This document shows, in pieces, positions 1,377 to 40,583 of a DNA stretch of 41,982 bases. The stretch comes from Alphaproteobacteria bacterium. Lineage in GTDB: Bacteria > Pseudomonadota > Alphaproteobacteria > CAAHEQ01 > UBA3637. A program made the position numbers and the translations under genes. Position 1 is the stretch's first letter. The number at the start of each line of letters is the position of its first letter. The notes below the pieces were generated by a model. It ran no database searches. It was given only the letters and a program-made list of their open reading frames with translations, and was not told the origin of the DNA. Location of the stretch: positions 1-41,982 of the forward strand of contig CAAHEQ010000025.1 in the NCBI GenBank assembly GCA_900772625.1, given 5' to 3'.

Positions 1377-1810
1377 TTGACAACATAGTCTTCATAATTA
1401 TCGGGTTCGATATAAGGGATTGCGCGGTCTTTGACCGAAATGCCATACGTGTGAACAGAGTTTCTTTTACCCGAAATCAACGGGTGCCACGGCGGCAAAG
1501 TTTTATACTTCATCAGCCACAAATAAGCACATGTTTTTGGAAGCCACTTTTTGCATTTTTTAATGTTTTGAGGCGTCAGCTTAATGCAATCGGGTACTGT
1601 GTCCCAACGCTTTGCATAATCTTTGCAGCGTCCCGAGCACACATCAAGCAACGGGCAAGCGATTTTTGTAAAGCGAATACGCCACACGCCGATTTTGACT
1701 AAACAGCACTTGCCGCACTTGTCACACACGGCTTCCCACTCTTTATCGGTCAGCTCGGAAAGCTTTTTGTTTTCCCAAAAAGGTTGCATTGTTTTATCTT
1801 TTTTCATCAT
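1361..1810 (-). CDS. ycgN: UPF0260 family protein YcgN
   Basis: 149 aa collinear with E. coli YcgN: FWENKKLSELTDKEWEAVCDKCGKCCL, DCIKLTP, CAY, PWHPL. Confidence 0.8.
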   Translation of the reverse strand: MMKKDKTMQPFWENKKLSELTDKEWEAVCDKCGKCCLVKIGVWRIRFTKIACPLLDVCSGRCKDYAKRWDTVPDCIKLTPQNIKKCKKWLPKTCAYLWLMKYKTLPPWHPLISGKRNSVHTYGISVKDRAIPYIEPDNYEDYVVKWQDL

Positions 1811-1910
1811 ACAAGCATTATAGTTCGTTTTTATACAAAATCAATTAAATTTTTGCGTGACAAAAAGAGCTATAAATGATAACATCAAAGTATTAAAAAA
1901 GGAGATGAAA

Positions 1911-2111
1911 ATGATTCGTTTTATTTTATCTATGTTGTTTATCGGTGCTTTCTTGGCGTTTTTTGTCATCGCCGTTTTGTGCGTTTGTATGGGCTTTACC
2001 GTTAAAGAATCGATTAACTGGATTTTAAACAGAGCCGAGCAGACCCAAAGCGTTGTTGTCAGCACGGTTAAAGAGGCCAGCAAAACTGTCGAGAAAATAT
2101 CCAATGAGTGA
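1911..2111 (+). CDS. small membrane protein, unknown function
   Basis: GGAG at 1901-1904 lies 6 nt before ATG 1911 (the track ORF starts at 1857). One clear TM helix (FILSMLFIGAFLAFFVIAVLCVCMGF). The stop overlaps the next start. Confidence 0.45.
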   Translation: MIRFILSMLFIGAFLAFFVIAVLCVCMGFTVKESINWILNRAEQTQSVVVSTVKEASKTVEKISNE

Positions 2112-2589
2112 GTCCGAAAACAAATCCTTTTTACACACGTTGTTGATGCCGTTGGCATTGTTTTTTGCAGGGCTAAAACATTTTTCAAGGTGGATTATCT
2201 TTTTTACTTTAATCGGTCTTGTTCTGTTTTTCTTATACGACCGATATGCGAATTCGACTTATCTAGAAGATTCGACAAGCGATTTTCAGGTCGGCTCTTT
2301 TGCGCGCCACAAAAAGTACAACAGCCCCCTAAAGCGTGGTCGAACAGTCGATTTAAAAGACGAGCTTGCCAAACATTATGGCACTCAGGTTGAAAAGGGC
2401 AAAGCCACCGCACCTGTGGTTAAAAATCGGGTGTCGTCCGAAAATGCGCTCCAAAAGCCAAAAGCAAAGCCTTTGCCAGAAGTAAAGGTCAAGGTTGAAC
2501 CTGTCGTGGATTTAAAGCCTCTTGGCGCGGATTTTGCGCCTCTTTCAAAAGGTTCGATTCAAGACGAAGTGCGATCTCGCTTGCAATAA
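2104..2589 (+). CDS. membrane protein with a Lys/Pro/Val-rich tail, unknown function
   Basis: ATG 2104 overlaps the preceding stop (ATGAGTGA). Two hydrophobic segments and the tail KPKAKPLPEVKVKVEPVVDLKP. The track ORF starts at 2053. Confidence 0.5.
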   Translation: MSESENKSFLHTLLMPLALFFAGLKHFSRWIIFFTLIGLVLFFLYDRYANSTYLEDSTSDFQVGSFARHKKYNSPLKRGRTVDLKDELAKHYGTQVEKGKATAPVVKNRVSSENALQKPKAKPLPEVKVKVEPVVDLKPLGADFAPLSKGSIQDEVRSRLQ

Positions 2590-2692
2590 AATTGCGCGTT
2601 TTTGAGGTTGTGCGGCGCATTTATGTGCCGTTTGAACCAAAGTAGATATTGTTTTTTCGCTTTATTTTTTTCATTTGTTTAATTGAGGAGAA

Positions 2693-3205
2693 ATGATGCG
2701 GGAAAAGAGACTTTATTTACTGCGCCATACGCAAGCTTGCAAAGCGTGTAAAACATGCATAGACTTTGAAACACCGCTGACGAAAAATGGGCGCAAGCAA
2801 GCTCAGCAGGTTGGTTTTTATTTAAAAAAGCACGCCTGTCACCCAGAGCTTGTCTTTTGCTCGAAGGCTAAACGCTGTATTGATACGCTGAGTATTATAA
2901 AAAAAGATATGCCTCCTGCGCCTGTTGTTTATCACCACTTTTTATATTTAGCATCAGGCTATACAGTTTTGGAAATGCTTAATTTTATTGGTGATGATAT
3001 TGACAATGTGTTAGTCGTTGGGCACAGTCAAGCCATCTGTCAATTGCCAGTATTGTTGCTGCCCGATGTGCGCCATATCGACAAGCGGTTAAACAGAGCC
3101 TATCCATGCGGTACGCTGATTTGCTTAAGCTTTCCTTTTTCAAGCCCGCATTGGCGTGACGTGTTGTGTCATCAAATGAAAATTGACGACATTTTTTATC
3201 CGTGA
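2693..3205 (+). CDS. histidine phosphatase superfamily protein, SixA-like
   Basis: 170 aa with LYLLRHTQA (RHG-like motif), PLTKNGRKQA, SKAKRCIDT and VVGHSQ, in the SixA order. GAGGAG SD precedes the start. Confidence 0.6.
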   Translation: MMREKRLYLLRHTQACKACKTCIDFETPLTKNGRKQAQQVGFYLKKHACHPELVFCSKAKRCIDTLSIIKKDMPPAPVVYHHFLYLASGYTVLEMLNFIGDDIDNVLVVGHSQAICQLPVLLLPDVRHIDKRLNRAYPCGTLICLSFPFSSPHWRDVLCHQMKIDDIFYP

Positions 3206-24033: not shown

Positions 24034-26844
24034 TTATTGCCTCATTAACTTTTCCATAATTATGTTCATTTTCATACTGTTCGAGCCTTTAATCAGCACG
24101 ACATCGCCGTCTTCAAGACGTGATTGGAGTGTGTTGATAACCTCGGGCGCGCTTTCAAAAAAGCCGCCTTTGATGGTGTCAGGCAAAATGTCGTACAAAG
24201 GCTTTGTCTCTGCCCCCACGCAAAAGACTAGGTCTATGTGGTTGCGAGCAATGGCATCATTCAAGCCTTGATGCAATACGGCGGACTTTTCGCCCAGCTC
24301 ACGCATTTCACCGATGACAGCCACTTTGCGCCCGTGGTTTGCTCCCAACACATTCAAGGACGCCGTCATCGACGACGGATTAGCATTATAGCAATCATCA
24401 ATAAAAGTAATGCTTTTGCCCATAACCGAGCCTTTGACGAGCGCACCGCGACCTTTGAGCGGTTTCATTTGCGCCAAGTTTTCAATGGCTTTGTCTACAT
24501 CGGCGTTCAGCGACAACACAACTCCCAGCACGCCTAGCGCATTTTGAATAAAGTGCAAGCCTGCCATTTGAAGTTTCAGCTCTTTTTCCTTGCCATTGAC
24601 GTGGATGATTGCACGCGAACCTGCCTCGTCTATGTGATAGTTGATCAGGCGCACGGTGCTGCCCTCTGCCGAGCCGAATGAGTAAATATGACTGAGCCCG
24701 TTTTCGGTGGCTTTTTGTTTTAAAAAGTCGAACATTGCATTGTCTTTGTTCAAAAATACTGCGCCGTTTTTGTTCATATGCGTAAAGATTTCGGCTTTGG
24801 CGGCGGCAATATCTTCAATGGTTTTAAAAAACTCGTGATGCGCCGAACCGACCATGGTAATCAAGGCAACATCAGGTTTGACAAGGTAAGATAAATACTC
24901 CATTTCGCCCGTGTGATTCATTCCCATTTCGATAATCGCCCAATTGGACAGTCGAGGCAATCTTGCCAAAGTCAACGGCACGCCCCATTGGTTGTTCAGG
25001 TTGCCCTTTGTTGCGTGCACAGTGCCTTGACCTTGCAACGCCAACGCCAACATTTCTTTTGAGGTTGTTTTGCCCGAGCTGCCTGTAATACCGATTTTCA
25101 TCGCGCGTGAGTTTTGCGCTGCATAGCGCGCCATATCTTCCAACGCTTCATCGGTGTTGACAACAAAAAAGAGCTTTTCTGTTTGCGTGATGTTTTCAAC
25201 ATCTTGGCTGACAATCGCGGCAACAGCGCCTTTTTTAAGCGCTTCTTTGACATAGTTGTGACCGTCCACTTTTTCGCCTTTCAAAGCGATGAAAATGTCA
25301 CCAGGTTGCAGCGTTCTGGTATCAATCGAAACGCCATAGGCAACGAATGTTTTATAACTTTTGCCACCTGTGGCGTGCTTGAGCTCATCACTTGTCCACA
25401 GCGGTTTTTCTTCTTGACTACGCAAGGCGAGTTGTGCTTGAATCTTGTCATTAAACGGGTGCATAAAGCCGTTAATCAGCTGACCTTCTTCGTGCCCTTT
25501 TCCTGCGATGAGCAGCGTATCATTGGCCTGAAGCTTATGGATAGCGTGATAAATGGCTTTGGCTCTGTCACCAATCGGGCGCGCGTTGGGGCAGCCTTTC
25601 ATAATCTGAGCGCGAATCTCGCCCGCATTTTCAAAACGTGGATTGTCATCAGTGACAACAACATAATCGGCGATACGTTCAGCAATTTGTCCCATAATCG
25701 GACGCTTGCCTGTGTCGCGATTGCCGCCACAACCAAAGACGACCAGCAGCCTGCCTTTCGTTTGCGCGCGCAGTGAGTTGAGTGCGTTTTCAAGCCCGTC
25801 TGGCGTGTGCGCATAGTCCACAAAAATCGGTGCACCTGCTTTTGTTTTGGCGACCAATTCCATCCGTCCTGAGGGGCTTTTTAAGCTCTTCAGCGTTTTT
25901 AAAATGTCCTCCACATCAAAGCCACAGCCAATCACTAATCCGATAGCGGTTAAAATGTTCATTCCTTGGAAGTTGCCCGCCACAGGAATGTCAACGTGAT
26001 AATCTTTGCCAAAGATTTGCAAATCAAGCGTTTGCGATGTTTCTTTTAATTCTTGCTTAATCAAGCGAATGTCTTGCCCTTTGTAGCCATAGGAAATGAC
26101 ACGCAGTCCTTTTTTGAGGCAGGCATCTTTAATGAGCTCGAACTCCTCAATGTCGGCATTTAAAACGGCCACTTCTTTTGTCAGCTCTGTAAAAAGCTTT
26201 AACTTGGCATTTAAGTAATTTTCCATCGTGCCGTGATAGTCCAAATGATCGCGCGTTAAGTTCGTAAAAGCGCTGGCTTTAAATTCAAGGCCGCTTAAGC
26301 GATGTTGCGCAAGCCCGTGACTGGAAGCTTCCAGCGCTGCATACTCAACGCCATTTTCGGCCAATGTTTCAAGGTCTTGATTGAGCGTTAAGCTGTCTGA
26401 AGTTGTCATACCGCCGTATGAGGTAAACTTGCCCGATTGAACCCCGAGCGTGCCGAGTGTGGCTGCGCTTTTGCCGAGGGCTTCCAAAATCTCGCGCACA
26501 AAAAAGACGGTTGAGGTTTTGCCGTTTGTGCCCGTGACAGCGACAAGTGTTTGGGGCTTTTTATTATAATAGTGCGCGCAAATCAAAGCAAAAGCTTTGC
26601 GCACGTCTTGTGTTTCAAATGTGGGAACATCGGCATTGATTGTATGATCTAAAAGCACGGCAACGGCGCCATTTTTGATTGCGACAGGAATGTAATCTTC
26701 ACCGTTTTCCTTGACGCCTTTGAGCGCAACAAACAAATATCCTTTTTTGACTTTGCGCGAATCGCACGCGATGCCTGTAATTTCAATGTTGGCGTCAAAT
26801 GGCGTATCAACTTGTCCTGCTTTTAATAATTCCGATAAAATCAT
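24034..26844 (-). CDS. murE/murF: fused MurE (meso-DAP-adding) / MurF (D-Ala-D-Ala-adding) Mur ligase, 936 aa
   Basis: The N-half is MurE (VTGTNGKTST, DYAHTPD, VTDDNPRFE, AGKGHE). After the linker ...QLALRSQEEKPLWTSDELK (~25402-25425) comes a complete MurF (GITGSSGKTTSKEM, DCYNANPSSM). Uninterrupted single frame. Confidence 0.9.
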   Translation of the reverse strand: MILSELLKAGQVDTPFDANIEITGIACDSRKVKKGYLFVALKGVKENGEDYIPVAIKNGAVAVLLDHTINADVPTFETQDVRKAFALICAHYYNKKPQTLVAVTGTNGKTSTVFFVREILEALGKSAATLGTLGVQSGKFTSYGGMTTSDSLTLNQDLETLAENGVEYAALEASSHGLAQHRLSGLEFKASAFTNLTRDHLDYHGTMENYLNAKLKLFTELTKEVAVLNADIEEFELIKDACLKKGLRVISYGYKGQDIRLIKQELKETSQTLDLQIFGKDYHVDIPVAGNFQGMNILTAIGLVIGCGFDVEDILKTLKSLKSPSGRMELVAKTKAGAPIFVDYAHTPDGLENALNSLRAQTKGRLLVVFGCGGNRDTGKRPIMGQIAERIADYVVVTDDNPRFENAGEIRAQIMKGCPNARPIGDRAKAIYHAIHKLQANDTLLIAGKGHEEGQLINGFMHPFNDKIQAQLALRSQEEKPLWTSDELKHATGGKSYKTFVAYGVSIDTRTLQPGDIFIALKGEKVDGHNYVKEALKKGAVAAIVSQDVENITQTEKLFFVVNTDEALEDMARYAAQNSRAMKIGITGSSGKTTSKEMLALALQGQGTVHATKGNLNNQWGVPLTLARLPRLSNWAIIEMGMNHTGEMEYLSYLVKPDVALITMVGSAHHEFFKTIEDIAAAKAEIFTHMNKNGAVFLNKDNAMFDFLKQKATENGLSHIYSFGSAEGSTVRLINYHIDEAGSRAIIHVNGKEKELKLQMAGLHFIQNALGVLGVVLSLNADVDKAIENLAQMKPLKGRGALVKGSVMGKSITFIDDCYNANPSSMTASLNVLGANHGRKVAVIGEMRELGEKSAVLHQGLNDAIARNHIDLVFCVGAETKPLYDILPDTIKGGFFESAPEVINTLQSRLEDGDVVLIKGSNSMKMNIIMEKLMRQ

Positions 26845-31490: not shown

Positions 31491-32747
31491 ATGTTTGATT
31501 TTGATAATATCTACAGTGAAGATGATTTGCTTGAACTTAAAGAGCAGGGCGCAAGCCGCGAGGAGCTTTTAAAAGCGTATGCGATGATTCCACAAAACAA
31601 TCGCCGCAAAGAGCGTCTTGCTAATCAAGAGCGCAAACAAGCCCAAGAAAAAATCTTGGCGGCGCGCGTTTTTTCAACAATGTATCCAAAGAATTGGGAA
31701 GCAATTTATTTACAAGATGTTGAAGAGCTGGTGCGCAAAGGTGCTGATATCGAAGCAAAGGACGTTTTTGGCTCGACAGCCCTTAAAAACGCCGTGCAAG
31801 CAAATCGCCCTGATTTGGTAGCTTTCTTTATTAAAAAGGGTGCAAATGTCAACACGCAAGATAACAGCTCGGTGACGCCACTGATGGCGGCAGCCGATAA
31901 GCCAGATGGGCTTGCAATGGCTTTACAGTTGCTCAAAAACGGAGCTAAAGTCGATGCAACAGATGTTTTCGGTTATACCGCATTAAGCGCGGCAACCACA
32001 AATGAAATGCGTTTTTTATTGATTAAGCACGGCGCGAAAGTCAATGTACCAAGTAAACTTGTCCGTGGGCAAACAGTCTTGATGACAGTCATTGGCGGCA
32101 AAAATCAAACATCCAACAGATTGACAGAAATAATGATTGCAAAAGGTGCTGATGTGAATGCGCAAGACAATAACGGTCTGACGCCACTGCACTATGCGTG
32201 CGGTGCGGGCAAAGAGATGACAGAGACGCTTTTGAAAGCCAAAGCGAACCCAAACATTCAAAACAAAAAAGGTCAAACGCCACTGATGTATCAAATCCGC
32301 ACGCGTTCAAAGGAAGAAATGGCAACTTTGCTGGCTCATGGTGCAAACGTAAATGCAAAAGACGGCTTTGGGCGCACAGCTTTGATGTACGCGGCTCAAG
32401 TTGGGTTAAAGGACAAGGTTGCATTCTTGCTTGAAAAAGGGGCTAATCCGCTCTTTTTTGATCGTTCAGGTCACACAGCGTTATCGCTTGTCACACATAA
32501 CAAAGAAAACCAACCGTTGATTAAATTGTTGGAAGAGGCTACGAAAATGAGCTATGCCGCATCGCAGATGCTGGTCGGCCAGTTTGAAGAGCGCAGCCAA
32601 AAGGCCTCAGAGATTTTGGAAGTCAATAATCATAAATTGCGCCGTGCCTTGTTTATGGGCGTTTCGCACACAATGCCAATTAATGTGAACAGGTGGCAAA
32701 GGCAACGGCAAATAAATTACGACCTCTTATCAAAAGAGCGTGATTAA
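31491..32747 (+). CDS. ankyrin-repeat protein (~8 ANK repeats)
   Basis: Repeated 33-aa units carrying G.TPL/G.TAL motifs (GSTALKNAV, VTPLMAAA, GYTALSAA, GLTPLHYACGAG, GQTPLMY, GRTALMYAAQVG, GHTALSL). Confidence 0.9.
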   Translation: MFDFDNIYSEDDLLELKEQGASREELLKAYAMIPQNNRRKERLANQERKQAQEKILAARVFSTMYPKNWEAIYLQDVEELVRKGADIEAKDVFGSTALKNAVQANRPDLVAFFIKKGANVNTQDNSSVTPLMAAADKPDGLAMALQLLKNGAKVDATDVFGYTALSAATTNEMRFLLIKHGAKVNVPSKLVRGQTVLMTVIGGKNQTSNRLTEIMIAKGADVNAQDNNGLTPLHYACGAGKEMTETLLKAKANPNIQNKKGQTPLMYQIRTRSKEEMATLLAHGANVNAKDGFGRTALMYAAQVGLKDKVAFLLEKGANPLFFDRSGHTALSLVTHNKENQPLIKLLEEATKMSYAASQMLVGQFEERSQKASEILEVNNHKLRRALFMGVSHTMPINVNRWQRQRQINYDLLSKERD

Positions 32748-34981: not shown

Positions 34982-36058
34982 ATGCAAAAGCTTTTGAAAC
35001 CTAAGGCCTTGAAGCAGGGCGATAAAGTTGCAAGTGTTTCTCTGTCGTGGGGAGGCGCGGGCGTGTTTCGGGCTTTTTATCAAAAAGCCAAAAAACAATT
35101 CGAAACGACATTTGATGTGCGCCTTGTCGAAATGCCGCACACGCTGGACACTCCGCAAGAGCTTTACGATAACCCCGCGTATCGGCTTGATGATTTAATG
35201 CAAGCGTTTTTGGACCCGTCTGTGCGGGCGATCTTGTGCACGATTGGCGGAGATGATACGATCCGCCTGTTGTCCCACATGACGGACAAGCATTTTGACA
35301 TCATACGCAAAAATCCGAAAATATTTTTGGGAATGTCGGATACGACAGTCAATCATTTTATGTGCTTGAAAGCAGGGCTTTCATCATTCTATGGCCCAAG
35401 CCTGATGTATGGTTATGCTGAGCCAGACGGCGTGCCCGAGCTCACGCGCCTCAATACTTTGCAAACGCTTTTTAACGCGCAGCCCATAGGCATATTGCAA
35501 GAAAGCCAAACTTATCGGGTCGAGCGCTTTGATTGGGCGCAAGATAATCCGCAAACGCCCGCAAAGCTTTCCTCTCCTCACTCCAAATATATTCAGGGAC
35601 GTAAAAGCGCGACAGGCCGTCTTATCGGCGGTTGTATGGAAGTTTTAAATATGATTAACGGCACCCCTTTGTGGCCGAACTTGGATCAATGGCAAGACAC
35701 GATTTTGTTTCTCGAAACAAGCGAAGAAATGCCGCCTGCGTCACAACTGTTGTACTTTTTAAGAAATCTCGGGGCTCAGGGCGTTTTGGATAAACTGCAA
35801 GGGATTTTATTTGCACGCCCTGGTGGCGATTTTGCCCCCGATCAGCAGCAAGAGCAAGCTCAGTGGTTGGCACATTTTGGGGACTATGATAAAGCGTTGT
35901 TGCAAGCGTTGGCAGAATTCGAACGATCCGATATACCTGTTGTCACGCATATGGATTTTGGGCATACGGTGCCGCAAAATATTTTGCCCTATGGGGTGTT
36001 GTGCGAAATTGATCCCGTTCAAAAACGGGTTGCAATTTTGGAAAGTGCGGTCGTTTAA
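34982..36058 (+). CDS. S66 peptidase, LD-carboxypeptidase/MccF-like
   Basis: AAGGAGGAAGGA SD before ATG 34982 (the track ORF starts at 34937). Nucleophile motif FLGMSDTT, GRLIGGC, and the His motif HMDFGHTVP. Its 358-aa length and central insert fit the MccF-like subgroup. Confidence 0.8.
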   Translation: MQKLLKPKALKQGDKVASVSLSWGGAGVFRAFYQKAKKQFETTFDVRLVEMPHTLDTPQELYDNPAYRLDDLMQAFLDPSVRAILCTIGGDDTIRLLSHMTDKHFDIIRKNPKIFLGMSDTTVNHFMCLKAGLSSFYGPSLMYGYAEPDGVPELTRLNTLQTLFNAQPIGILQESQTYRVERFDWAQDNPQTPAKLSSPHSKYIQGRKSATGRLIGGCMEVLNMINGTPLWPNLDQWQDTILFLETSEEMPPASQLLYFLRNLGAQGVLDKLQGILFARPGGDFAPDQQQEQAQWLAHFGDYDKALLQALAEFERSDIPVVTHMDFGHTVPQNILPYGVLCEIDPVQKRVAILESAVV

Positions 36059-36597
36059 AAAGCGATCAAATCGGTGTTGGCAAACTTGCGAGGAACGTAA
36101 TCGCTCCAATACTTGCGTCCGTCAAATGGTTGGGTTGGATTTTCTTTGTAATAAGTCGCCATACGGATAAAGCCACCGTGCGTGACGGCCAAAATACAAG
36201 AGGGTGAATGAGCATATTCATCTATAAAGTCTTTTGTGCGCGCAAAGGCTTGCCATGGCGCTTCGGCCTCTATCAACTCTGGTTTCGTGTGGTACTTAAG
36301 CCAAATCTCGTCTGTTAAGTCTTTGGACAGCACGCCTTCGATTTGTCCATATTTAAACTCGCGCAAACGCGTATCAAGCGTGATTTGCAGCTTCAAATGC
36401 GTGTTGATAATCTGCGCCGTTTCCAAGGCACGGCTTAAATCGGATGAAATAATCCGATCAATTTTTAAATCCGTCAATTTAGGTGCAATCAGCCGCGCTT
36501 GCTCTTTGCCCGTCTCATTCAAGGGAATGTCCGATTGCCCTTGAATCTTGTGTTCGATATTCCAATTCGTTTGACCATGCCTGACAAAGTAAATCAT
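36055..36597 (-). CDS. histidine phosphatase family protein (GpmB/PhoE-like)
   Basis: MIYFVRHGQTNWN, SDLSRALETA and VTHGG. ATGA overlap with the upstream Nudix gene; the track start at 36648 was rejected. Confidence 0.85.
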   Translation of the reverse strand: MIYFVRHGQTNWNIEHKIQGQSDIPLNETGKEQARLIAPKLTDLKIDRIISSDLSRALETAQIINTHLKLQITLDTRLREFKYGQIEGVLSKDLTDEIWLKYHTKPELIEAEAPWQAFARTKDFIDEYAHSPSCILAVTHGGFIRMATYYKENPTQPFDGRKYWSDYVPRKFANTDLIAF

Positions 36598-37301
36598 TGT
36601 TGTGCGCCTTTGCTTTGAGTGCTTTGTAATCGTCTGTTTAATTCCCATAGCGCGATTTTGTGCAAATCATATCGGTACAATATTGTCGCCGTGTGATAGG
36701 GCAGCCATTTAAAATCTGCATGCTCGCTCGATAAGTGAATGTCAAGCCCCGTGGCATCTACACCAAAGCAGGACTCGGGGATTAGCAAAGCTTGACCTTG
36801 ATAGGTCGGATCAATCCATTCGGCGGGCGTGTTAGCACAGGCTGTCAGCTCGATAAAATGTGCTTTGTCGGGGGTAATGCCAGCTTCTTCAAATGTCTCG
36901 CGCATAGCCGCTGTAAGTGGCGTTTCTGTCGCCTCTACACCTCCCGTGATTGCTGCCCAGTATACATCACCGTTGCATAGAAAGCAACCATATAAAAACT
37001 CCCCCTTTTCTGTGCGTTGATAAGGAATGACGACCACTTCGGCAGGCAGACTTTTGTCATTACCTTTAACGCCAAAAACAAGCTTGAAATTGGGTCGGGA
37101 CTTTTTGCACCATTCAACTCCTTTTTTCGAGACAACCAGCACGCGCCATCCAATCCACAGCCGAAAATAATAAGCTTTATCTTTCAGCTTGACTTTGGCT
37201 TTGCATCGCCTCTCTGTGCCGTTAGGCATTTCTATTTCAACGCTTCGCCCCAGTCCAAAGCGGTTGTTATCAAAGTCAATGCCGTACTCAATATATATCA
37301 T
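36594..37301 (-). CDS. Nudix hydrolase with an ~90-aa N-terminal domain of unknown function
   Basis: Nudix box GGVEATETPLTAAMRETFEEAGI. No in-frame Met lies between the ATG at 37301 and the Nudix fold. Confidence 0.75.
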   Translation of the reverse strand: MIYIEYGIDFDNNRFGLGRSVEIEMPNGTERRCKAKVKLKDKAYYFRLWIGWRVLVVSKKGVEWCKKSRPNFKLVFGVKGNDKSLPAEVVVIPYQRTEKGEFLYGCFLCNGDVYWAAITGGVEATETPLTAAMRETFEEAGITPDKAHFIELTACANTPAEWIDPTYQGQALLIPESCFGVDATGLDIHLSSEHADFKWLPYHTATILYRYDLHKIALWELNRRLQSTQSKGAQQ

Positions 37302-37368: not shown

Positions 37369-39129
37369 TTATTTCCAAAGTTGCAAAGATTTAGATTCGT
37401 CAATATAACGAACGTTTTCAATGAACTCGTCAATGTTCAAGCCGCCTTTTTGATTGTTTTGACGGTCGCGAACAGAAATCGTTCCGCTTTCAAGTTCCTT
37501 ATCGCCCAAGATAATTGCGTAAGGAATCTTTTGCTCGTGCGCGGCGCGGATTTGATAACCGATTGTATTCGATTGACGCTCCATTTCTGCGCGAATGCCT
37601 GCGTTTTGGAGCTTTTCAACTAAAGCCGCTCCAGCTTCGCGGTGTTTGTCGGAAACAGGCAATACACGGACTTGAACAGGCGCAATCCATACAGGGAAAG
37701 AACCCGCAAAGTGCTCTGTAATCACGCCAAAGAATCTTTCCAACGAACCGTACAAAACGCGGTGAATAACGACAGGTGTTTTTTCCTTGCCGTCTTTGTC
37801 AACATACTTGCAGCCAAAGCGTTCCGCTAATTGGAAATCCAATTGGAAAGTACCTGTTTGCCATTCACGACCCAAGGCATCTTTCATTTGAATGTCGACC
37901 TTTGGACCATAGAAAGCACCGTCTTTGTCTTTAATTTCATAGTTGCCAGCACCACATTTTTTATCCAAAATACGGCGCAAAGCGGCTTCGGCTCTGTTCC
38001 AAGTTTCAACATCTCCGATGAAATCATCTGGACGAGTAGAAAGTTTCATTTGATACTTCAGTCCGAACAAGTTATAAAATTGATCGGCCAAAGCGAACAA
38101 ACGTTCATACTCTTCTTCAATTTGTTCTTCTGTAATGAAAATATGCGCATCGTCTTGATGGAACTCACGAACGCGGAACATACCGTTTAATGCGCCCGAT
38201 GCTTCGTTGCGGTGAATCATATCAACGTCCGAGAAACGAATAGGCAAATCCGCATACGAGCGTGTCTTCAAGTTAAACAACAACATAGTTGCAGGGCAGC
38301 TCATTGGCTTTAATGCATAAACTTCATTTTCTGGCATTTCGTTGGCTGTCAGCAAGTACATATCATCTTTATAATGATCCCAGTGACCCGAGATTTCCCA
38401 CAGTTGACGCGAGTTCATCAGGGGACCTGCAAACTCTAAATAGCCCGCTTTTTCGTGTTCTTTACGCCAATAATCCAACAAGATGTTGTACATCTTTAAG
38501 CCCTTTGGCAACCAATAAGGGCAACCTGGAGCAGTTGGGTCAAAGTGGAATAACTCAAGCAATTTCCCGATTTTGCGGTGGTCGCGCTTTTTGGCTTCTT
38601 CAATCATATTTAAATAATCTTCAAGCTCTTTTTTCGATGCAAAAGCTGTGCCATAAATGCGTGTCAGCATCTTATTGTTCGAATCACCGTGCCAGTATGC
38701 ACCTGCGACCGACAAAAGCTTGAAAGCCTTAATGTCCGAAACCCAACCAACGTGAGGGCCACAGCACAAGTCAACAAACTTGTCGCCTGTCCAATAAACT
38801 GAGGCTTGCTCGCCACGCTTTTCAATTTCGTTAATCCAATCTTGCTTGTATTCGTTGCCTTTAAATAAATCGCGTGCTTCGGCAATCGAGATTTCCTTGC
38901 GTGTCAGGGGCACGCGCGAGTCAATAATCTTTTTCATTTGCGCTTCGATTTTTGGCAAGTCGTCTGTGGAAATAGAAACGCCCTCAGGCAATTCAAAATC
39001 GCCATAAAAGCCGTCTTTTGTGGCTGGCCCCATCGCCATTTTGACGCCAGGGTACAAATCATACATCGCTTGAGCCAATACGTGTTGGCAAGAATGGCGC
39101 ATTGCGCTGATATCAATATCTTTACTCAT
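37369..39129 (-). CDS. thrS: threonine--tRNA ligase lacking the N-terminal TGS domain
   Basis: 586 aa, beginning at the editing-domain motif RHSCQHVLAQA. Also AGAYWHGDSNNKMLTRIYG, KRDHRKIGK, class II motif FRVREFHQDDAH and GAFYGPK. AAGGA lies 9 nt before the ATG. Confidence 0.95.
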   Translation of the reverse strand: MSKDIDISAMRHSCQHVLAQAMYDLYPGVKMAMGPATKDGFYGDFELPEGVSISTDDLPKIEAQMKKIIDSRVPLTRKEISIAEARDLFKGNEYKQDWINEIEKRGEQASVYWTGDKFVDLCCGPHVGWVSDIKAFKLLSVAGAYWHGDSNNKMLTRIYGTAFASKKELEDYLNMIEEAKKRDHRKIGKLLELFHFDPTAPGCPYWLPKGLKMYNILLDYWRKEHEKAGYLEFAGPLMNSRQLWEISGHWDHYKDDMYLLTANEMPENEVYALKPMSCPATMLLFNLKTRSYADLPIRFSDVDMIHRNEASGALNGMFRVREFHQDDAHIFITEEQIEEEYERLFALADQFYNLFGLKYQMKLSTRPDDFIGDVETWNRAEAALRRILDKKCGAGNYEIKDKDGAFYGPKVDIQMKDALGREWQTGTFQLDFQLAERFGCKYVDKDGKEKTPVVIHRVLYGSLERFFGVITEHFAGSFPVWIAPVQVRVLPVSDKHREAGAALVEKLQNAGIRAEMERQSNTIGYQIRAAHEQKIPYAIILGDKELESGTISVRDRQNNQKGGLNIDEFIENVRYIDESKSLQLWK

Positions 39130-39195
39130 TTTATAAAATCCTTATTTTAAAGTATTAAATTGTTTTGTTGAAATTATTTTGTGTATGCGAAATTG

Positions 39196-39211
39196 AACCC
39201 CCTACGGGGTT
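39196..39211 (-). promoter_or_regulatory. leader hairpin AACCCC-GUAG-GGGGUU enclosing the uORF stop codon
   Basis: 6-bp stem (4 GC pairs). The UAG of the leader ORF lies in the tetraloop. It is followed by CAAUUUCG, a poor U-tract. Confidence 0.5.
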
Positions 39212-39258
39212 GTCGTCTTTGTCGTTGTTGTTGTCAAATAAAATAAGTACTTGAACAT
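39202..39258 (-). CDS. putative thrS leader peptide MFKYLFYLTTTTTKTTTP (18 codons)
   Basis: Hand translation of the minus strand: ATG at 39258 with AAGGA 7 nt upstream. Codons 9-17 are ACA ACA ACA ACG ACA AAG ACG ACA ACC, and the TAG stop is at 39204-39202. It lies between the predicted promoter and thrS. Confidence 0.55.
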   Translation of the reverse strand: MFKYLFYLTTTTTKTTTP

Positions 39259-39285
39259 CAATAATTCCTTTTGCTTGTTAAAAGC

Positions 39286-39315
39286 AGTATAGCACCACTT
39301 TTTATATCAAGTCAA
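39286..39315 (-). promoter_or_regulatory. sigma70-like promoter (extended -10) of the thrS leader
   Basis: Minus strand reads TTGACT, 18-nt spacer, TATACT preceded by TGC. Confidence 0.5.
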
Positions 39316-39350
39316 TAGAAAAAATCATTTTTTTAAGCGCTTTATTTTGG

Positions 39351-40583
39351 CTACCAGCGACCAGAGGCACCGCCGCCACCAAAAGAGCCTCCGCCACCCG
39401 AAAAGCCACCGCGTCCACCCGAACTGCGGCCACCGCCCGAGCCGTGGGAGTGATAGCGTGCTCTAAAAGCTTTGTTGGTAAAATAGCGATCGTTCTTGAG
39501 ATCGAACCAGTCACCCATAAAAATAAATGAGTGAATGAAAAAGAAAATGTACGCCGCAAGGGCTTTATAAAAGTCGAAATAAATACTAAAAAAAACGATA
39601 AAAATCGAGTAAGCAATAACGCCAGCAACCCATGAGTTTTTAAATTCTTTTTTGTTTTTGGCAATTTGCTTTTTCTCATTTTCGGTAAATTCGGGTTCAG
39701 GCTTTGCTTTAAAGAGCTTTGAAAAACACGACTTGATAAGATAAGGTAAAAATAAGCGCACGCTCCAAAACCCTACCAAGCCGCACAGCGCGTTAAGCGT
39801 CAGACGCAGTGCATTTGGCACGTCAGAGACTATGCTTAAGTATAAGGAGGCTATGCCCACACCACTTGCAAATAAAATAACCCACACAAGGGCAAACGTC
39901 GCCACAAGGGCAAACGGGCACAGCAAAATTAAAAATGTTCCCACGATTGCAAAGTTAAACTTGCTGGGAGATATTTCTTTTTCGTGTTGATAAATGCGGC
40001 GAAATTTTGGCCAAATAAACTTGAATACCACAAAAAAGGCGGGAAATAAGCAACAAATGCGCCAAAAGTTGCTTTCTTGCTCTTTTTCCTGAATGGGGAC
40101 TTGTGGCGCGATAGATCCGCCGTTCAGCACGTCCAACACAGCCTCTGACCCTTTGATAAGTGATTCGTCATACTTTCCTTTTTTGGCCAAAGGCAGCATA
40201 ATGCGGTTGATGATTTGGCTTGCCTTTGCATCCGTCAGCGTGCCTTCCAGCCCATAGCCAACCTCGATGCGCATTTGACGTTGCTCGGGTGCGATGATCA
40301 CCAGCACGCCGTCATCAATTTCTTTGCGGCCGATGCCCCAATGGCGGCCAAGCGCTACGCCATATTCTTCAATTTCATCGCCTCGGAGAGATTTGAGCGA
40401 TACTGCGACAACCTGATGCGGTTCGGCTTTCTTTAACGTCTCCGTCAGGAAAGCTTCTTGTTCGGGTGAAAGAATGCCTGCCTCATCGACAACGCGCCCC
40501 GTCAATGCTGGAAAATCCAGAGCATTTGCTCCGCTCAACGTCAGCGCAATAATGGCAATAGCAAAAATAAACCGCTTAATCAT
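39351..40583 (-). CDS. TPM-domain (YgcG-like) membrane protein with a Gly-rich tail
   Basis: Signal peptide and a TPM phosphatase-like domain (LTGRVVDEAGILSPEQ...VLVIIAPEQRQMRIEVGYGLEG). Several TM segments and the C-terminal tail GGGRSSGGRGGFSGGGGSFGGGGASGRW. Confidence 0.85.
   Translation of the reverse strand: MIKRFIFAIAIIALTLSGANALDFPALTGRVVDEAGILSPEQEAFLTETLKKAEPHQVVAVSLKSLRGDEIEEYGVALGRHWGIGRKEIDDGVLVIIAPEQRQMRIEVGYGLEGTLTDAKASQIINRIMLPLAKKGKYDESLIKGSEAVLDVLNGGSIAPQVPIQEKEQESNFWRICCLFPAFFVVFKFIWPKFRRIYQHEKEISPSKFNFAIVGTFLILLCPFALVATFALVWVILFASGVGIASLYLSIVSDVPNALRLTLNALCGLVGFWSVRLFLPYLIKSCFSKLFKAKPEPEFTENEKKQIAKNKKEFKNSWVAGVIAYSIFIVFFSIYFDFYKALAAYIFFFIHSFIFMGDWFDLKNDRYFTNKAFRARYHSHGSGGGRSSGGRGGFSGGGGSFGGGGASGRW

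What the first reader, a model, noticed from the sequence alone, without database searches (positions are those of the whole stretch)
39130..39315. Threonine-codon-rich leader ORF upstream of thrS: candidate ribosome-mediated sensor of Thr-tRNA charging
Seen (hand translated; the ORF is too short for the track): downstream of a TTGACT-18-TGC-TATACT promoter, AAGGA lies 7 nt before an ATG at 39258. This opens an 18-codon ORF, MFKYLFYLTTTTTKTTTP, with 8 Thr codons among codons 9-17. Its UAG stop lies in the loop of the hairpin AACCCC-GUAG-GGGGUU, 66 nt before the thrS ATG. The Thr tract (ACAACAACAACGACAAAGACGACAACCCC) is C/A-rich and G-poor.

Established: runs of cognate codons in leader peptides control the thr, his, leu, trp and phe operons, and also the synthetase operon pheST (pheM). 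The textbook thrS controls are a translational operator (E. coli) and a T-box (Bacillus).

Inference: thrS here may be tuned by ribosome stalling at Thr codons. I could not find a classical antiterminator/terminator alternative. One possibility is that a stalled ribosome masks a rut-like tract so Rho cannot load; another is that ribosome position controls formation of the stop-codon hairpin.
Basis: partly seen in the sequence, partly recalled or inferred. Interest (0 to 1): 0.75.

Follow-up and report, generated by a model that had tools for sequence, protein, structure and literature searches.

The report
Threonine-codon leader peptide controlling thrS
A tiny 18-codon gene packed with threonine codons sits in front of the threonyl-tRNA synthetase gene of an uncultured gut alphaproteobacterium and recurs in many relatives, so it very probably lets the cell read its supply of charged threonine tRNA through ribosome speed; this is a familiar kind of switch, newly seen on this gene and in a stripped-down form.

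Summary
It comprises a promoter, an AAGGA Shine-Dalgarno sequence (SD), the upstream ORF (uORF) MFKYLFYLTTTTTKTTTP, a UAG in the GUAG loop of AACCCC/GGGGUU, and 66 nt to the thrS ATG. About 14 distinct thrS loci (ThrRS N-domain identity roughly 52-92%) carry a short upstream ORF with a Thr run that ends at a GC hairpin holding the stop codon. Thr-rich small ORFs occur in 11/159 thrS upstream regions, against 0 on the antisense strand and 1.75±1.4 in shuffles. Two distant members (L092, L102) are textbook three-helix attenuators with U-tract terminators. This ties the Thr leader to transcription attenuation. The window holds a minimal form with a hairpin only, no U-tract and no antiterminator. 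Its output step is therefore unresolved. I favour ribosome shielding of bare leader RNA from Rho (tna-like), which is inferred, not shown. Intrinsic termination at the hairpin and post-transcriptional effects are rivals. No Rfam family matches. Precedents are pheST, Streptomyces trpS/leuS and a weak two-Thr 'thrL' before S. lividans thrS. Verdict: real, a new member of a known kind, of moderate interest. In passing, thrS here is a recombinant mosaic whose 5' module travels with the leader.

The parts
39286..39315 (-). Sigma-70-type promoter: -35 TTGACT (39315..39310), 18-nt spacer with extended -10 TG, -10 TATACT (39291..39286). The predicted start is near 39279, about 21 nt before the uORF ATG.
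   Evidence: 10/12 match, TG present. Promoter-like elements at the same distance (24-27 nt from the -10 to the uORF start) occur in L001, L162, L163, L161, L101 and L168 (alignment).
39266..39270 (-). Shine-Dalgarno AAGGA of the leader ORF, 7 nt before the ATG.
   Evidence: Read directly. SD-like motifs (GAGAGG, AAGGAG, AAGAGG, AAAGGA, GAAGGA) precede the uORF in relatives. L084 and L102 instead appear to be leaderless uORFs.
39202..39258 (-). Leader ORF (thrL-like), 18 codons plus UAG: MFKYLFYLTTTTTKTTTP*.
   Evidence: It is conserved in about 14 distinct loci. It shows a within-species K3E polymorphism in L081 and L168.
39208..39234 (-). Thr tract, codons 9-17 (ACA ACA ACA ACG ACA AAG ACG ACA ACC), proposed as the sensing codons. 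The last two Thr codons form the 5' arm of the hairpin.
   Evidence: unique in the window. Thr-rich small ORFs: 11/159 thrS upstream regions on the sense strand, 0 antisense, 1.75±1.4 in shuffles.
39196..39211 (-). Hairpin AACCCC-GUAG-GGGGUU with the UAG stop in the loop. It corresponds to helix 1:2 of the classical members. A ribosome on the late Thr codons or on the stop codon melts it.
   Evidence: The core ACAACCCCGTAGGGGGT is identical in window, L001, L162, L163, L161 and L082 although the flanks diverge. Variants keep the pairing (ACCGCC/GGCGGT in L084, CCCCT/AGGGG in L101, CACCCC/GGGGTG in L089). The stop lies in a hairpin loop in 9/14 leaders against 2.8% of 795 control small ORFs.
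39184..39193 (-). Block ATTTCGCATA just 3' of the hairpin, conserved in the closest relatives; function unknown. C39189/G39188 lie 10-11 nt after the G run, which fits the G-10/Y-1/G+1 pause consensus (consensus recalled from my own knowledge; the fit is inference only).
   Evidence: Alignment (window, L001, L162; near-matches in L163 and L161).
39130..39195 (-). 66-nt spacer, 78% A+U, with only 3 G and no predicted stable structure. It contains the thrS SD AAGGA (39143..39139). The distance from uORF stop to thrS ATG is 68-95 nt in all single-hairpin relatives.
37369..39129 (-). thrS, 586 aa, without the N-terminal TGS domain (tRNA_SAD + class II core + anticodon-binding domain); this is the regulated gene. 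It is mosaic: residues 1-190 belong to the leader-linked lineage, and residues 200-586 are 94-100% identical to a TGS-containing ThrRS (L002).

Best explanation
This is a leader-peptide attenuator for thrS, a thrL-like element.

Proposed sequence of events:
- Transcription starts about 21 nt before an 18-codon ORF whose codons 9-17 are almost all Thr.
- The time a ribosome spends on that tract reports the supply of Thr-tRNA(Thr).
- When charged tRNA(Thr) is scarce, the ribosome lingers on the Thr tract. Its last codons are the 5' arm of the hairpin, so the leader RNA stays covered and the hairpin stays open. RNA polymerase then continues into thrS, and more ThrRS is made.
- When charged tRNA(Thr) is plentiful, the ribosome runs to the UAG in the hairpin loop and leaves. 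The hairpin refolds, and about 150 nt of untranslated, G-poor leader RNA is exposed. Transcription then ends prematurely.

Two distant family members end transcription with a classical terminator/antiterminator pair. The window has neither a U-tract nor an antiterminator. I therefore think its off-step is most likely Rho-dependent, shielded by the stalled ribosome as in tnaC, speFL and cruR. In that reading the hairpin acts as the pause and synchronising helix.

Shown by comparison: the leader ORF, the Thr run, the hairpin holding the stop codon, the promoter position, and the classical attenuators in relatives.
Inferred: that stalling turns thrS on, and all of the output step.

My estimates: about 0.8 that this is a functional sensor of Thr-tRNA charging for thrS, and about 0.35-0.4 that the output in this window is Rho-dependent.
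For: Anatomy confirmed.

Conservation and statistics:
- The uORF, Thr run and stop-in-hairpin are conserved in about 14 distinct loci, down to about 52% ThrRS N-domain identity.
- Thr-specific enrichment: 11/159 on the sense strand, 0 antisense, 1.75±1.4 in shuffles. With at least 5 Thr the counts are 7 against 0.25.
- The run is unique in the window.
- The stop codon lies in a hairpin loop in 9/14 leaders against 2.8% of controls.
- The N-terminal peptide is variable and polymorphic, while the Thr codons are kept through synonymous and neighbouring changes.

Link to attenuation:
- L092 and L102 switch between an antiterminator (ribosome on the Thr codons) and a terminator with U6-7 (ribosome on the stop codon) in masked folding.

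Pointers towards Rho in the window:
- No terminator on this strand.
- The best C>G 78-nt window starts exactly at the first Thr codon, with C/G 1.9, the 97th percentile for this DNA.
- The spacer has 3 G in 66 nt and no predicted structure.
- uORF-dependent rut shielding is an established mechanism (PMC12360218).

My own geometric reasoning (inference): a single hairpin acting as an intrinsic terminator gives the wrong sign. A ribosome can block the hairpin only when it is closely coupled to the polymerase, that is, when translation is fast.
Against: - There are no experimental data of any kind.
- C content is only 24% in the best window and about 14% in the spacer. The C>G bias follows automatically from ACN codons.
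- No rho gene is seen in the 42-kb window, so the presence of Rho in this organism is assumed.
- Several single-hairpin relatives (L084, L089, L169, L171) have long U-rich runs after the hairpin, which points to intrinsic termination.
- L082/83 keep the hairpin with only 3 Thr codons, and L085 lacks the leader altogether. The element is therefore dispensable or variable.
- The role assigned to the hairpin (pause and synchronisation) is conjecture.
Confidence: 0.55

Rival explanations
1. The sensor is the same, but the output is intrinsic termination at the conserved hairpin itself (direct occlusion). The hairpin plus the U-containing tail (UUCAAUUUCG) would be a weak terminator. A ribosome held on the last Thr codons covers its 5' arm and lets the polymerase through.
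For: In relatives the same hairpin is followed by U-rich runs: L084 CGGUAUUUUCUUUUUUU, L089 UGAUUUUCUUUUACUUUUUUU, and U7 tracts in L169 and L171. Masked folding shows that a ribosome at late Thr codons abolishes the hairpin. Regulatory codons overlapping a terminator with no antiterminator are described for actinobacterial ilvB leaders (PMC1262725).
Against: The window clade has only 4-6 U in the 14 nt after the stem, and the scan calls no terminator on this strand. In L169 and L171 the U7 run lies 12-14 nt from the stem. By my own reasoning (inference), a ribosome reaches the last Thr codons only after the polymerase has passed the release site. Fast translation, not stalling, would then suppress the hairpin, which gives the wrong regulatory sign. 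The ilvB precedent is itself unresolved.
Confidence: 0.2
2. The sensor is the same, but the output is post-transcriptional. A ribosome stalled near the 5' end would stabilise the thrS mRNA against 5'-end-dependent decay (as in ermC-type induced stability). Alternatively it would change access to the thrS ribosome-binding site.
For: The sign is right without needing any alternative structure. The A/U-rich single-stranded spacer would be a good endonuclease substrate. The stalled-ribosome 5' stabiliser is known from erm leaders (my own knowledge, not checked here).
Against: Pairing between the U-rich 5' part of the uORF and the thrS SD region is no better than in shuffled controls across 16 leaders (z between -3.2 and +1.6, mostly near 0). 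No conserved structure involves the thrS SD. The classical relatives clearly act on transcription.
Confidence: 0.1
3. The minimal leader in this window no longer senses Thr. It would be a decayed remnant of a classical attenuator, or a uORF and hairpin kept for another reason, such as constitutive damping of thrS or a pause site.
For: The window lacks the terminator and antiterminator. L082/83 retain the hairpin with only 3 Thr codons, and L085 has lost the whole leader.
Against: The Thr run is kept or even lengthened (5 to 10 Thr) in six distinct sequences of the window clade. Their flanking leader sequence has diverged heavily. A remnant would not keep an SD, a start codon, the reading frame and the Thr codons.
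Confidence: 0.12
4. The Thr-rich ORF is a relic of the lost N-terminal TGS-domain coding sequence. TGS-containing relatives read ...DLTTPITT... just before the conserved MRH motif.
For: Local resemblance: L002 GATTTGACAACGCCTATTACAACGG (DLTTPITT) against L001 TACTTGACAACAACCACTCCTACGACAAC (YLTTTTPTTT).
Against: The two are not collinear: 132 nt against 78 nt to the MRH motif. The leader occurs with TGS-less ThrRS as distant as 52-69% identity. The leader-linked 5' module is a separate lineage from the TGS-containing genes (34-50% identity over the first 150 residues). A promoter and an SD sit in front of the ORF.
Confidence: 0.03

Closest known systems
E. coli thr operon leader thrL (Rfam Thr_leader, RF00506)
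   Same: [quoted passage not shown] Ribosome speed on it reports charged tRNA(Thr). The stop codon lies next to the first helix.
   Different: It controls the biosynthetic thrABC operon, not the synthetase. It also contains Ile codons. It has a full terminator/antiterminator set. No Rfam model reports a match here, even at E<=10.
pheM-pheST attenuator of gamma-proteobacteria, and the trpS, leuS and alaS leader attenuators of Streptomyces
   Same: An aminoacyl-tRNA synthetase gene is governed by a leader peptide rich in its own cognate codons (PMC1262725; PMC8079986).
   Different: A different amino acid and different taxa. Those are classical attenuators with U-tract terminators. The window has only one hairpin.
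'thrL' upstream of thrS in Streptomyces lividans TK24 (MKRVRPFLETTPGFVPAR)
   Same: A leader ORF before thrS, proposed from RNA-seq. It has two Thr followed by Pro (TTP, as in LTTP* of L082), one hairpin and no U-rich tract. It is leaderless, as L084 and L102 appear to be (PMC8079986).
   Different: It has only two Thr codons, and the stop codon is not described as lying in the hairpin. It comes from a high-GC actinobacterium. No homology is shown and it has not been tested.
uORF-dependent Rho attenuators (tnaC-tnaAB, speFL-speF, cruR-bfrG)
   Same: A ribosome held at the end of a short uORF shields adjacent RNA from Rho. Release of the ribosome allows premature termination (PMC12360218). This is the logic I propose for the output step.
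   Different: Those use arrest peptides that sense a small molecule at the stop codon. Here the stall would come from hungry codons, and the peptide sequence is not conserved. Rho dependence is untested.
Actinobacterial ilvB leaders with regulatory codons overlapping a terminator hairpin
   Same: The cognate codon run overlaps the hairpin directly, and no antiterminator can be found (PMC1262725).
   Different: Those hairpins carry poly-U runs. The mode of regulation is itself stated to be unclear.
Textbook thrS controls: the E. coli ThrRS translational operator and the Bacillus T-box
   Same: The same gene and the same physiological goal, matching ThrRS to tRNA(Thr) charging.
   Different: There is no T-box match, although T-boxes were found before Clostridia thrS in L009, L016 and L043. 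There are no anticodon-arm-like hairpins next to the SD. This ThrRS lacks the TGS part of the N-terminal region that, in E. coli, competes with the ribosome (my own knowledge).

Membership tests
Ribosome-mediated leader-peptide transcription attenuator (trp/his/thr/pheST type) | A short translatable ORF with its own initiation signals, downstream of the promoter and upstream of the regulated gene | tested here: met
   Promoter 10/12 with extended -10; AAGGA 7 nt before the ATG; 18-codon ORF; the same layout in relatives.
Ribosome-mediated leader-peptide transcription attenuator (trp/his/thr/pheST type) | A cluster of codons for the amino acid cognate to the regulated gene | tested here: met
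   8 Thr in codons 9-17, unique in the window, 0 in 100 simulations. The enrichment upstream of thrS is specific to Thr and to the sense strand.
Ribosome-mediated leader-peptide transcription attenuator (trp/his/thr/pheST type) | The leader ORF and its codon cluster are conserved in orthologous loci while the rest of the peptide drifts | tested here: met
   About 14 distinct leaders; alignment; exceptions are L082/83 (3 Thr) and L085 (no leader).
Ribosome-mediated leader-peptide transcription attenuator (trp/his/thr/pheST type) | An intrinsic terminator (GC hairpin followed directly by a U run) between the leader ORF and the gene | tested here: not met
   No terminator is called on the minus strand, and 4 U are found in the 14 nt after the stem. 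The feature is met in relatives L092 (CUCCC-AAC-GGGAG + U7) and L102 (CCUCCC-GAUA-GGGAGG + U6).
Ribosome-mediated leader-peptide transcription attenuator (trp/his/thr/pheST type) | A mutually exclusive antiterminator whose formation depends on ribosome position | tested here: not met
   Masked folding of the window leader gives only the single hairpin or no structure. The feature is met in L092 and L102.
Ribosome-mediated leader-peptide transcription attenuator (trp/his/thr/pheST type) | Expression responds to the level of charged cognate tRNA | not testable with these tools
   Needs reporter, Term-seq or ribosome-profiling experiments.
Rfam Thr_leader (RF00506) | A match to the covariance model | tested here: not met
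   No hit in 38900..39500 even at E<=10. None at gathering score in the window or in 40 related loci.
T-box leader (RF00230) | A match to the covariance model (specifier loop and T-box sequence) | tested here: not met
   As a positive control, T-boxes were detected in L009, L016 and L043.
E. coli-type ThrRS translational operator | Anticodon-arm-like stem-loops (7-nt loop with NGU) flanking the thrS SD | tested here: not met
   The 66-nt spacer has no stable predicted stem-loop, and the only hairpin has a 4-nt GUAG loop 50 nt from the SD. Binding by ThrRS cannot be tested here.
uORF-dependent Rho attenuator (tnaC/speFL/cruR type) | A C-rich, G-poor, unstructured rut of about 70-80 nt overlapping or adjoining the site where the ribosome stalls | tested here: inconclusive
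   The best 78-nt window starts at the first Thr codon, with C 24%, G 13% and C/G 1.9 (97th percentile). The spacer alone has about 14% C, and the bias is largely dictated by ACN codons.
uORF-dependent Rho attenuator (tnaC/speFL/cruR type) | Readthrough depends on Rho (bicyclomycin or rho mutants) | not testable with these tools
   No experiment is possible. rho is not among the genes identified in the window.
uORF-dependent Rho attenuator (tnaC/speFL/cruR type) | A conserved arrest peptide that senses a ligand | tested here: not met
   The peptide outside the Thr run is variable (MFKYLFYL, MIQGFDFFYL, MKHEFNFFSF, MSWIVNK...). The stall would come from the codons, not the peptide.

The most novel reading that the evidence does not exclude
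The single-hairpin leaders, including this window, could form a distinct class. In it the run of cognate Thr codons (ACN, hence C-rich and G-poor) would be both the sensor and the Rho-loading site. A ribosome starved for Thr-tRNA would then shield the very RNA that Rho needs. This would be a Rho-dependent attenuator of an aminoacyl-tRNA synthetase gene that senses charged tRNA. It would have evolved from, or into, classical three-helix attenuators within one gene lineage. It would also move by recombination together with the 5' editing-domain module of thrS.
Probability: 0.3. Interest if true: 0.7.

Novelty: new member of a known kind. Interest (0 to 1): 0.5.

Why it matters
thrS is the textbook case for two other control modes: protein autoregulation in E. 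coli and the T-box in Bacillus. A third mode, codon-run leader-peptide attenuation, has so far been only hinted at for thrS, by one RNA-seq annotation in Streptomyces.

This work yields a family of about 14 sequences, unannotated in Rfam, from gut, rumen and other metagenomes. Within one homologous series it spans textbook three-helix attenuators and stripped-down one-hairpin forms. That series is useful for two questions:
- how attenuators are simplified or rebuilt during evolution;
- how a one-hairpin leader can give the right regulatory sign.

The second question is also open for actinobacterial ilvB and cys leaders. The link between the leader and a recombining 5' module of thrS suggests that regulatory leaders and enzyme domains can be exchanged together.

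In practice, annotation pipelines miss this ORF and would report a plain 5' UTR.

Tried and rejected
1. Sequestration of the thrS SD by the U-rich 5' part of the uORF. In the window CUUAUUUUA pairs with UAAAAUAAG. Duplex energies across 16 leaders are no better than in dinucleotide shuffles, so I rejected it.
2. The TGS-relic origin of the Thr run. I rejected it on collinearity and phylogeny.
3. Known RNA families. Nothing matches in Rfam at E<=10. The three weak hits (STnc130, mir-244, osmY) are noise.
4. A hidden region 3 or 4 in the window. No AACCCC-like partner for the 3' arm and no second GC hairpin lie in the 66-nt spacer.
5. The GGGGG 3' arm acting as an SD for a second small ORF. An AUG follows it in L082, L088 and L161, but not in the window, L001 or L163, so it is not conserved (read).
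6. A formal covariation count on the hairpin. The gapless alignment (A1) puts the pairs out of register between variants, so I did not run the count of structure pairs. I relied on per-sequence folds.
7. A rut-like spacer. C/G is 0.5-3 with low C content, which is not convincing on its own.
8. Literature searches for thrS leader peptides. Only the S. lividans thrL mention turned up.
Full report
**Observation.** thrS lies on the minus strand (37369..39129, 586 aa).
- -35 TTGACT (39315..39310), an 18-nt spacer ending in TGC, and -10 TATACT (39291..39286). The promoter scan scores this 10/12 with an extended -10 TG.
- AAGGA (39270..39266), 7 nt before the ATG at 39258.
- An 18-codon ORF, MFKYLFYLTTTTTKTTTP, that ends at UAG 39204..39202.
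- That UAG sits in the GUAG loop of AACCCC/GGGGUU (39211..39196), at about -9.3 to -9.9 kcal/mol.
- 66 nt from the hairpin to the thrS ATG, or 72 nt from the stop codon.

This is the only place in six frames of the 42-kb window with at least 7 Thr in 9 codons, and 100 second-order Markov simulations gave none. No Rfam family matches the region even at E<=10, and the window holds only a tRNA-Val at gathering score.

**Context.** The ThrRS has the tRNA_SAD editing-domain motif, the class II core and the anticodon-binding domain, but no TGS domain. Upstream on the same strand are LemA and a TPM-domain protein. Downstream are a NUDIX protein and a histidine phosphatase. The rest of the window carries a cell-division and cell-wall cluster, dnaB and an ankyrin-repeat protein. 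The nearest genomes are uncultured gut Alphaproteobacteria MAGs.

I anchored on ThrRS and collected loci from genomes and from metagenomes, using the N-terminal 200 aa so that hits include the upstream region. I also took contigs encoding close homologues. About 14 distinct leaders emerged (table).

| Locus | ThrRS identity | Leader peptide |
|---|---|---|
| window / L081 / L168 | same species (ThrRS N-terminal part identical) | MF(K/E)YLFYLTTTTTKTTTP |
| L001 | 90% | MIQGFDFFYLTTTTPTTTTP |
| L162 | 90% | ...YLTTTTTTTTTTP |
| L163 | 90% | ...YLTTTTITTTP |
| L161 | 92% | MKHEFNFFSFTTTTTP |
| L082/83 | 86% | MNSLATHSFLTTP |
| L088 | 85% | ...CIYFYTTCLKTTP |
| L084 | 80% | MIRDDLYLHTTCVTTTA |
| L164 | 69% | MSWIVNKTTTRLTTTP |
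| L089 | 66% | ...KITTTTTATTPKGV |
| L101 | 62% | MFDNFIYAITTTTTP |
| L169 | 57% | ...GFLTTATTITTL |
| L171 | 57% | ...GTFTTTTL |
| L092/93 | 61% | MKVSSLSICTTTTNPF |
| L102/103 | 52% | MFTTTHTTTTILPL |

The N-terminal residues, the spacer and the promoter sequence all diverge. The Thr codons are kept through third-position and neighbouring changes. Most leaders are preceded by SD-like motifs. L084 and L102 have a strong promoter whose -10 ends 6-7 nt before the start codon, so they are probably leaderless uORFs.

Small ORFs with at least 4 Thr in 8 codons occur in 11 of 159 thrS upstream regions on the sense strand. They occur in none on the antisense strand and in 1.75±1.4 (maximum 6) of dinucleotide shuffles. 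With at least 5 Thr the counts are 7 against 0.25.

**The hairpin.** In nearly every leader the ORF ends in or at the loop of a GC hairpin whose 5' arm is made of the last Thr codons.
- The core ACAACCCCGTAGGGGGT is identical in six diverged sequences of the window clade.
- More distant leaders keep the pairing with other bases: ACCGCC/GGCGGT in L084, CCCCT/AGGGG in L101, CACCCC/GGGGTG in L089, and CACC(A)CCC/GGGGGTG in L169 and L171.
- By a strict criterion (at least 5 bp, at most -7 kcal/mol, stop in or at the loop), 9 of 14 leaders qualify, against 22 of 795 (2.8%) small ORFs in the other thrS upstream regions.

**Link to attenuation.** L092 and L102 are complete classical attenuators. I masked the RNA that a ribosome would cover and refolded the rest.
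- L092, no ribosome: helix 1:2 plus the terminator CUCCC-AAC-GGGAG followed by U7.
- L092, ribosome on Thr codons 12-13: the antiterminator GGGAGGUU/AACCUCCC forms instead.
- L092, ribosome on the stop codon: the terminator forms again.
- L102 behaves the same way with CCUCCC-GAUA-GGGAGG followed by U6.

In both, the helix that holds the stop codon is helix 1:2. The window's hairpin corresponds to that helix. The Thr leader family is therefore tied to transcription attenuation with the usual sign: stalling gives readthrough.

**The window's minimal form.** The window and most relatives have only this one hairpin.
- In the window there is no partner for the 3' arm downstream, no second GC hairpin and no U-tract. 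Only 4 of the 14 nt after the stem are U, and the scan calls no terminator on this strand.
- Some single-hairpin relatives do have U-rich runs after the hairpin (L084, L089, L169, L171).
- The distance from the stop codon to the thrS ATG is 68-95 nt in all single-hairpin loci.

**How it most likely works.** The sensor part is well supported. The output part is inference.

A single hairpin acting as an intrinsic terminator has a problem of sign. A ribosome can occlude the hairpin at the moment of decision only if it follows the polymerase closely, and that happens when translation is fast. A ribosome held at the early Thr codons leaves the hairpin free. It also cannot reach the last Thr codons until the polymerase has passed the release point. 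This is my own reasoning from the known ribosome and polymerase footprints, and it was not computed.

The one difference between starved and replete cells that has the right sign is whether a ribosome remains on the leader. I therefore favour a tna-like scheme.
- With ample Thr-tRNA, the ribosome terminates at the UAG and leaves. The bare, G-poor leader then lets Rho load and stop the polymerase.
- With scarce Thr-tRNA, the ribosome stays on the Thr tract and on the 5' arm of the hairpin, and it shields that RNA.

Such shielding by uORF ribosomes is established for tnaC, speFL and cruR (PMC12360218). The support from composition is modest.
- The 78-nt window with the highest C/G begins exactly at the first Thr codon. 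Its C/G is 1.9, the 97th percentile for this DNA.
- That bias follows from ACN codons.
- The spacer alone has only about 14% C.

The block ATTTCGCATA, conserved just after the hairpin in the closest relatives, places a C-G step 10-11 nt after the G run. It could be a hairpin-stabilised pause site. The pause consensus is recalled from my own knowledge and was not checked here, and this reading is conjecture. I put about 0.8 on a functional Thr-tRNA sensor for thrS. For the output I put about 0.35-0.4 on Rho, 0.2 on intrinsic termination at the hairpin, 0.1 on a post-transcriptional effect and about 0.1 on a remnant that no longer senses.

**Rejected ideas.**
- Pairing of the U-rich 5' part of the uORF with the thrS SD looked attractive in the window (9 bp). 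It is no better than in shuffles across the family.
- The Thr run resembles the ...DLTTPITT... end of the TGS domain of related ThrRS. The leader, however, occurs with much more distant TGS-less enzymes, and the two are not collinear.

**What is known.**
- Leader-peptide attenuation of synthetase genes is established for pheST. It is predicted for Streptomyces trpS and leuS (PMC1262725).
- An RNA-seq reannotation of S. lividans lists alaL, trpL2 and leuL2. It also lists a 'thrL' (MKRVRPFLETTPGFVPAR, two Thr, one hairpin, no U-tract) before thrS (PMC8079986).
- Exchange of T-box and leader-peptide control before the same gene in different phyla is documented for hisS (PMC2965389).
- Regulatory codons overlapping a terminator with no antiterminator are noted for actinobacterial ilvB leaders, and their mode is stated to be unclear.
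- Seven full-text searches found no description of a Thr-run leader before thrS beyond the S. lividans note.
- Rfam has no family for it.

I therefore file this as a new member of a known kind. It has an unusually clear codon run. Within one homologous series it includes both classical and minimal architectures.

**Side finding.** thrS in this window is a recombinant.
- Residues 1-190 are 100% identical to L168, which has the same synteny and the same leader.
- Over those first 150 residues the window is only 34-50% identical to L002.
- Residues 200-586 are 94-100% identical to L002, a TGS-containing ThrRS without a leader.
- Over those residues the window is only 22-54% identical to L168.
- A neighbour-joining tree of the N-terminal 150 aa groups most of the leader-bearing loci (L092 and L102 fall outside). 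It places the TGS-containing genes elsewhere.

The leader thus travels with the 5' (editing-domain) module of the gene.

**Verdict.** The central interpretation is supported by comparative evidence, and the mechanism of the output step is open. This is a new member of a known kind, with interest about 0.5.

Noticed in passing
window 37369..39129 (minus); L168, L002: thrS is a domain-level mosaic. Residues 1-190 are 100% identical to L168 (same synteny, same leader), but residues 200-586 are only 22-54% identical to L168. Against L002 (a TGS-containing ThrRS without a leader) the pattern is reversed: 34-50% identity over the first 150 residues, then 94-100%. There is a recombination breakpoint near residue 190-200, and the leader moves with the 5' module.
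   Followed up: partly
L003, L004 and L005, about 40-70 nt upstream of the TGS-containing thrS start: The TGS-containing orthologues have no leader ORF. Instead they have a promoter followed by a short hairpin with a GGGGU loop (for example L004 TCGGGCA-GGGGT-TGCCTGA) just before the SD. This could be a protein-binding operator. The loop does not fit an anticodon-loop mimic in an obvious way.
   Followed up: no
L085 versus L169 and L171: L085 shares the upstream chorismate-mutase gene and the promoter region with L169 and L171 and has a closely related ThrRS. It lacks the leader ORF and hairpin entirely. The leader has therefore been lost or gained within a narrow clade.
   Followed up: partly
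L167 1203..1514 and 1501..3141: In this relative the TGS domain is called as a separate 103-aa gene that overlaps the start of a 546-aa ThrRS. This is a frameshift, a pseudogene in the making or an assembly error.
   Followed up: no
window 39196..39211, plus strand: On the opposite strand the same palindromic hairpin is followed by the T-rich complement of the Thr codons (GTCGTCTTTG...), and the scan scores it as terminator-like. No plus-strand gene ends there, so this is probably incidental.
   Followed up: no
window 24034..26844 (minus): A 936-aa ORF carries two sets of Mur-ligase domains, apparently a fused MurE-MurF. It lies inside a cell-division and cell-wall cluster with a PBP transpeptidase, FtsA and FtsZ.
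   Followed up: no
window 31491..32747 (plus) and 39351..40583 (minus): There is a 418-aa ankyrin-repeat protein, a type often seen in host-associated bacteria (the association is from my own knowledge). The TPM-domain protein upstream of the leader ends in a Gly-rich tail (…GGGRSSGGRGGFSGGGGSFGGGGASGRW).
   Followed up: no
window 36055..36648 and 36594..37301 (minus): The NUDIX gene downstream of thrS and the histidine-phosphatase gene overlap by 55 nt as ORFs are listed. In L168 the two called genes overlap by only 4 nt, so the true start of the phosphatase gene is probably further in.
   Followed up: no
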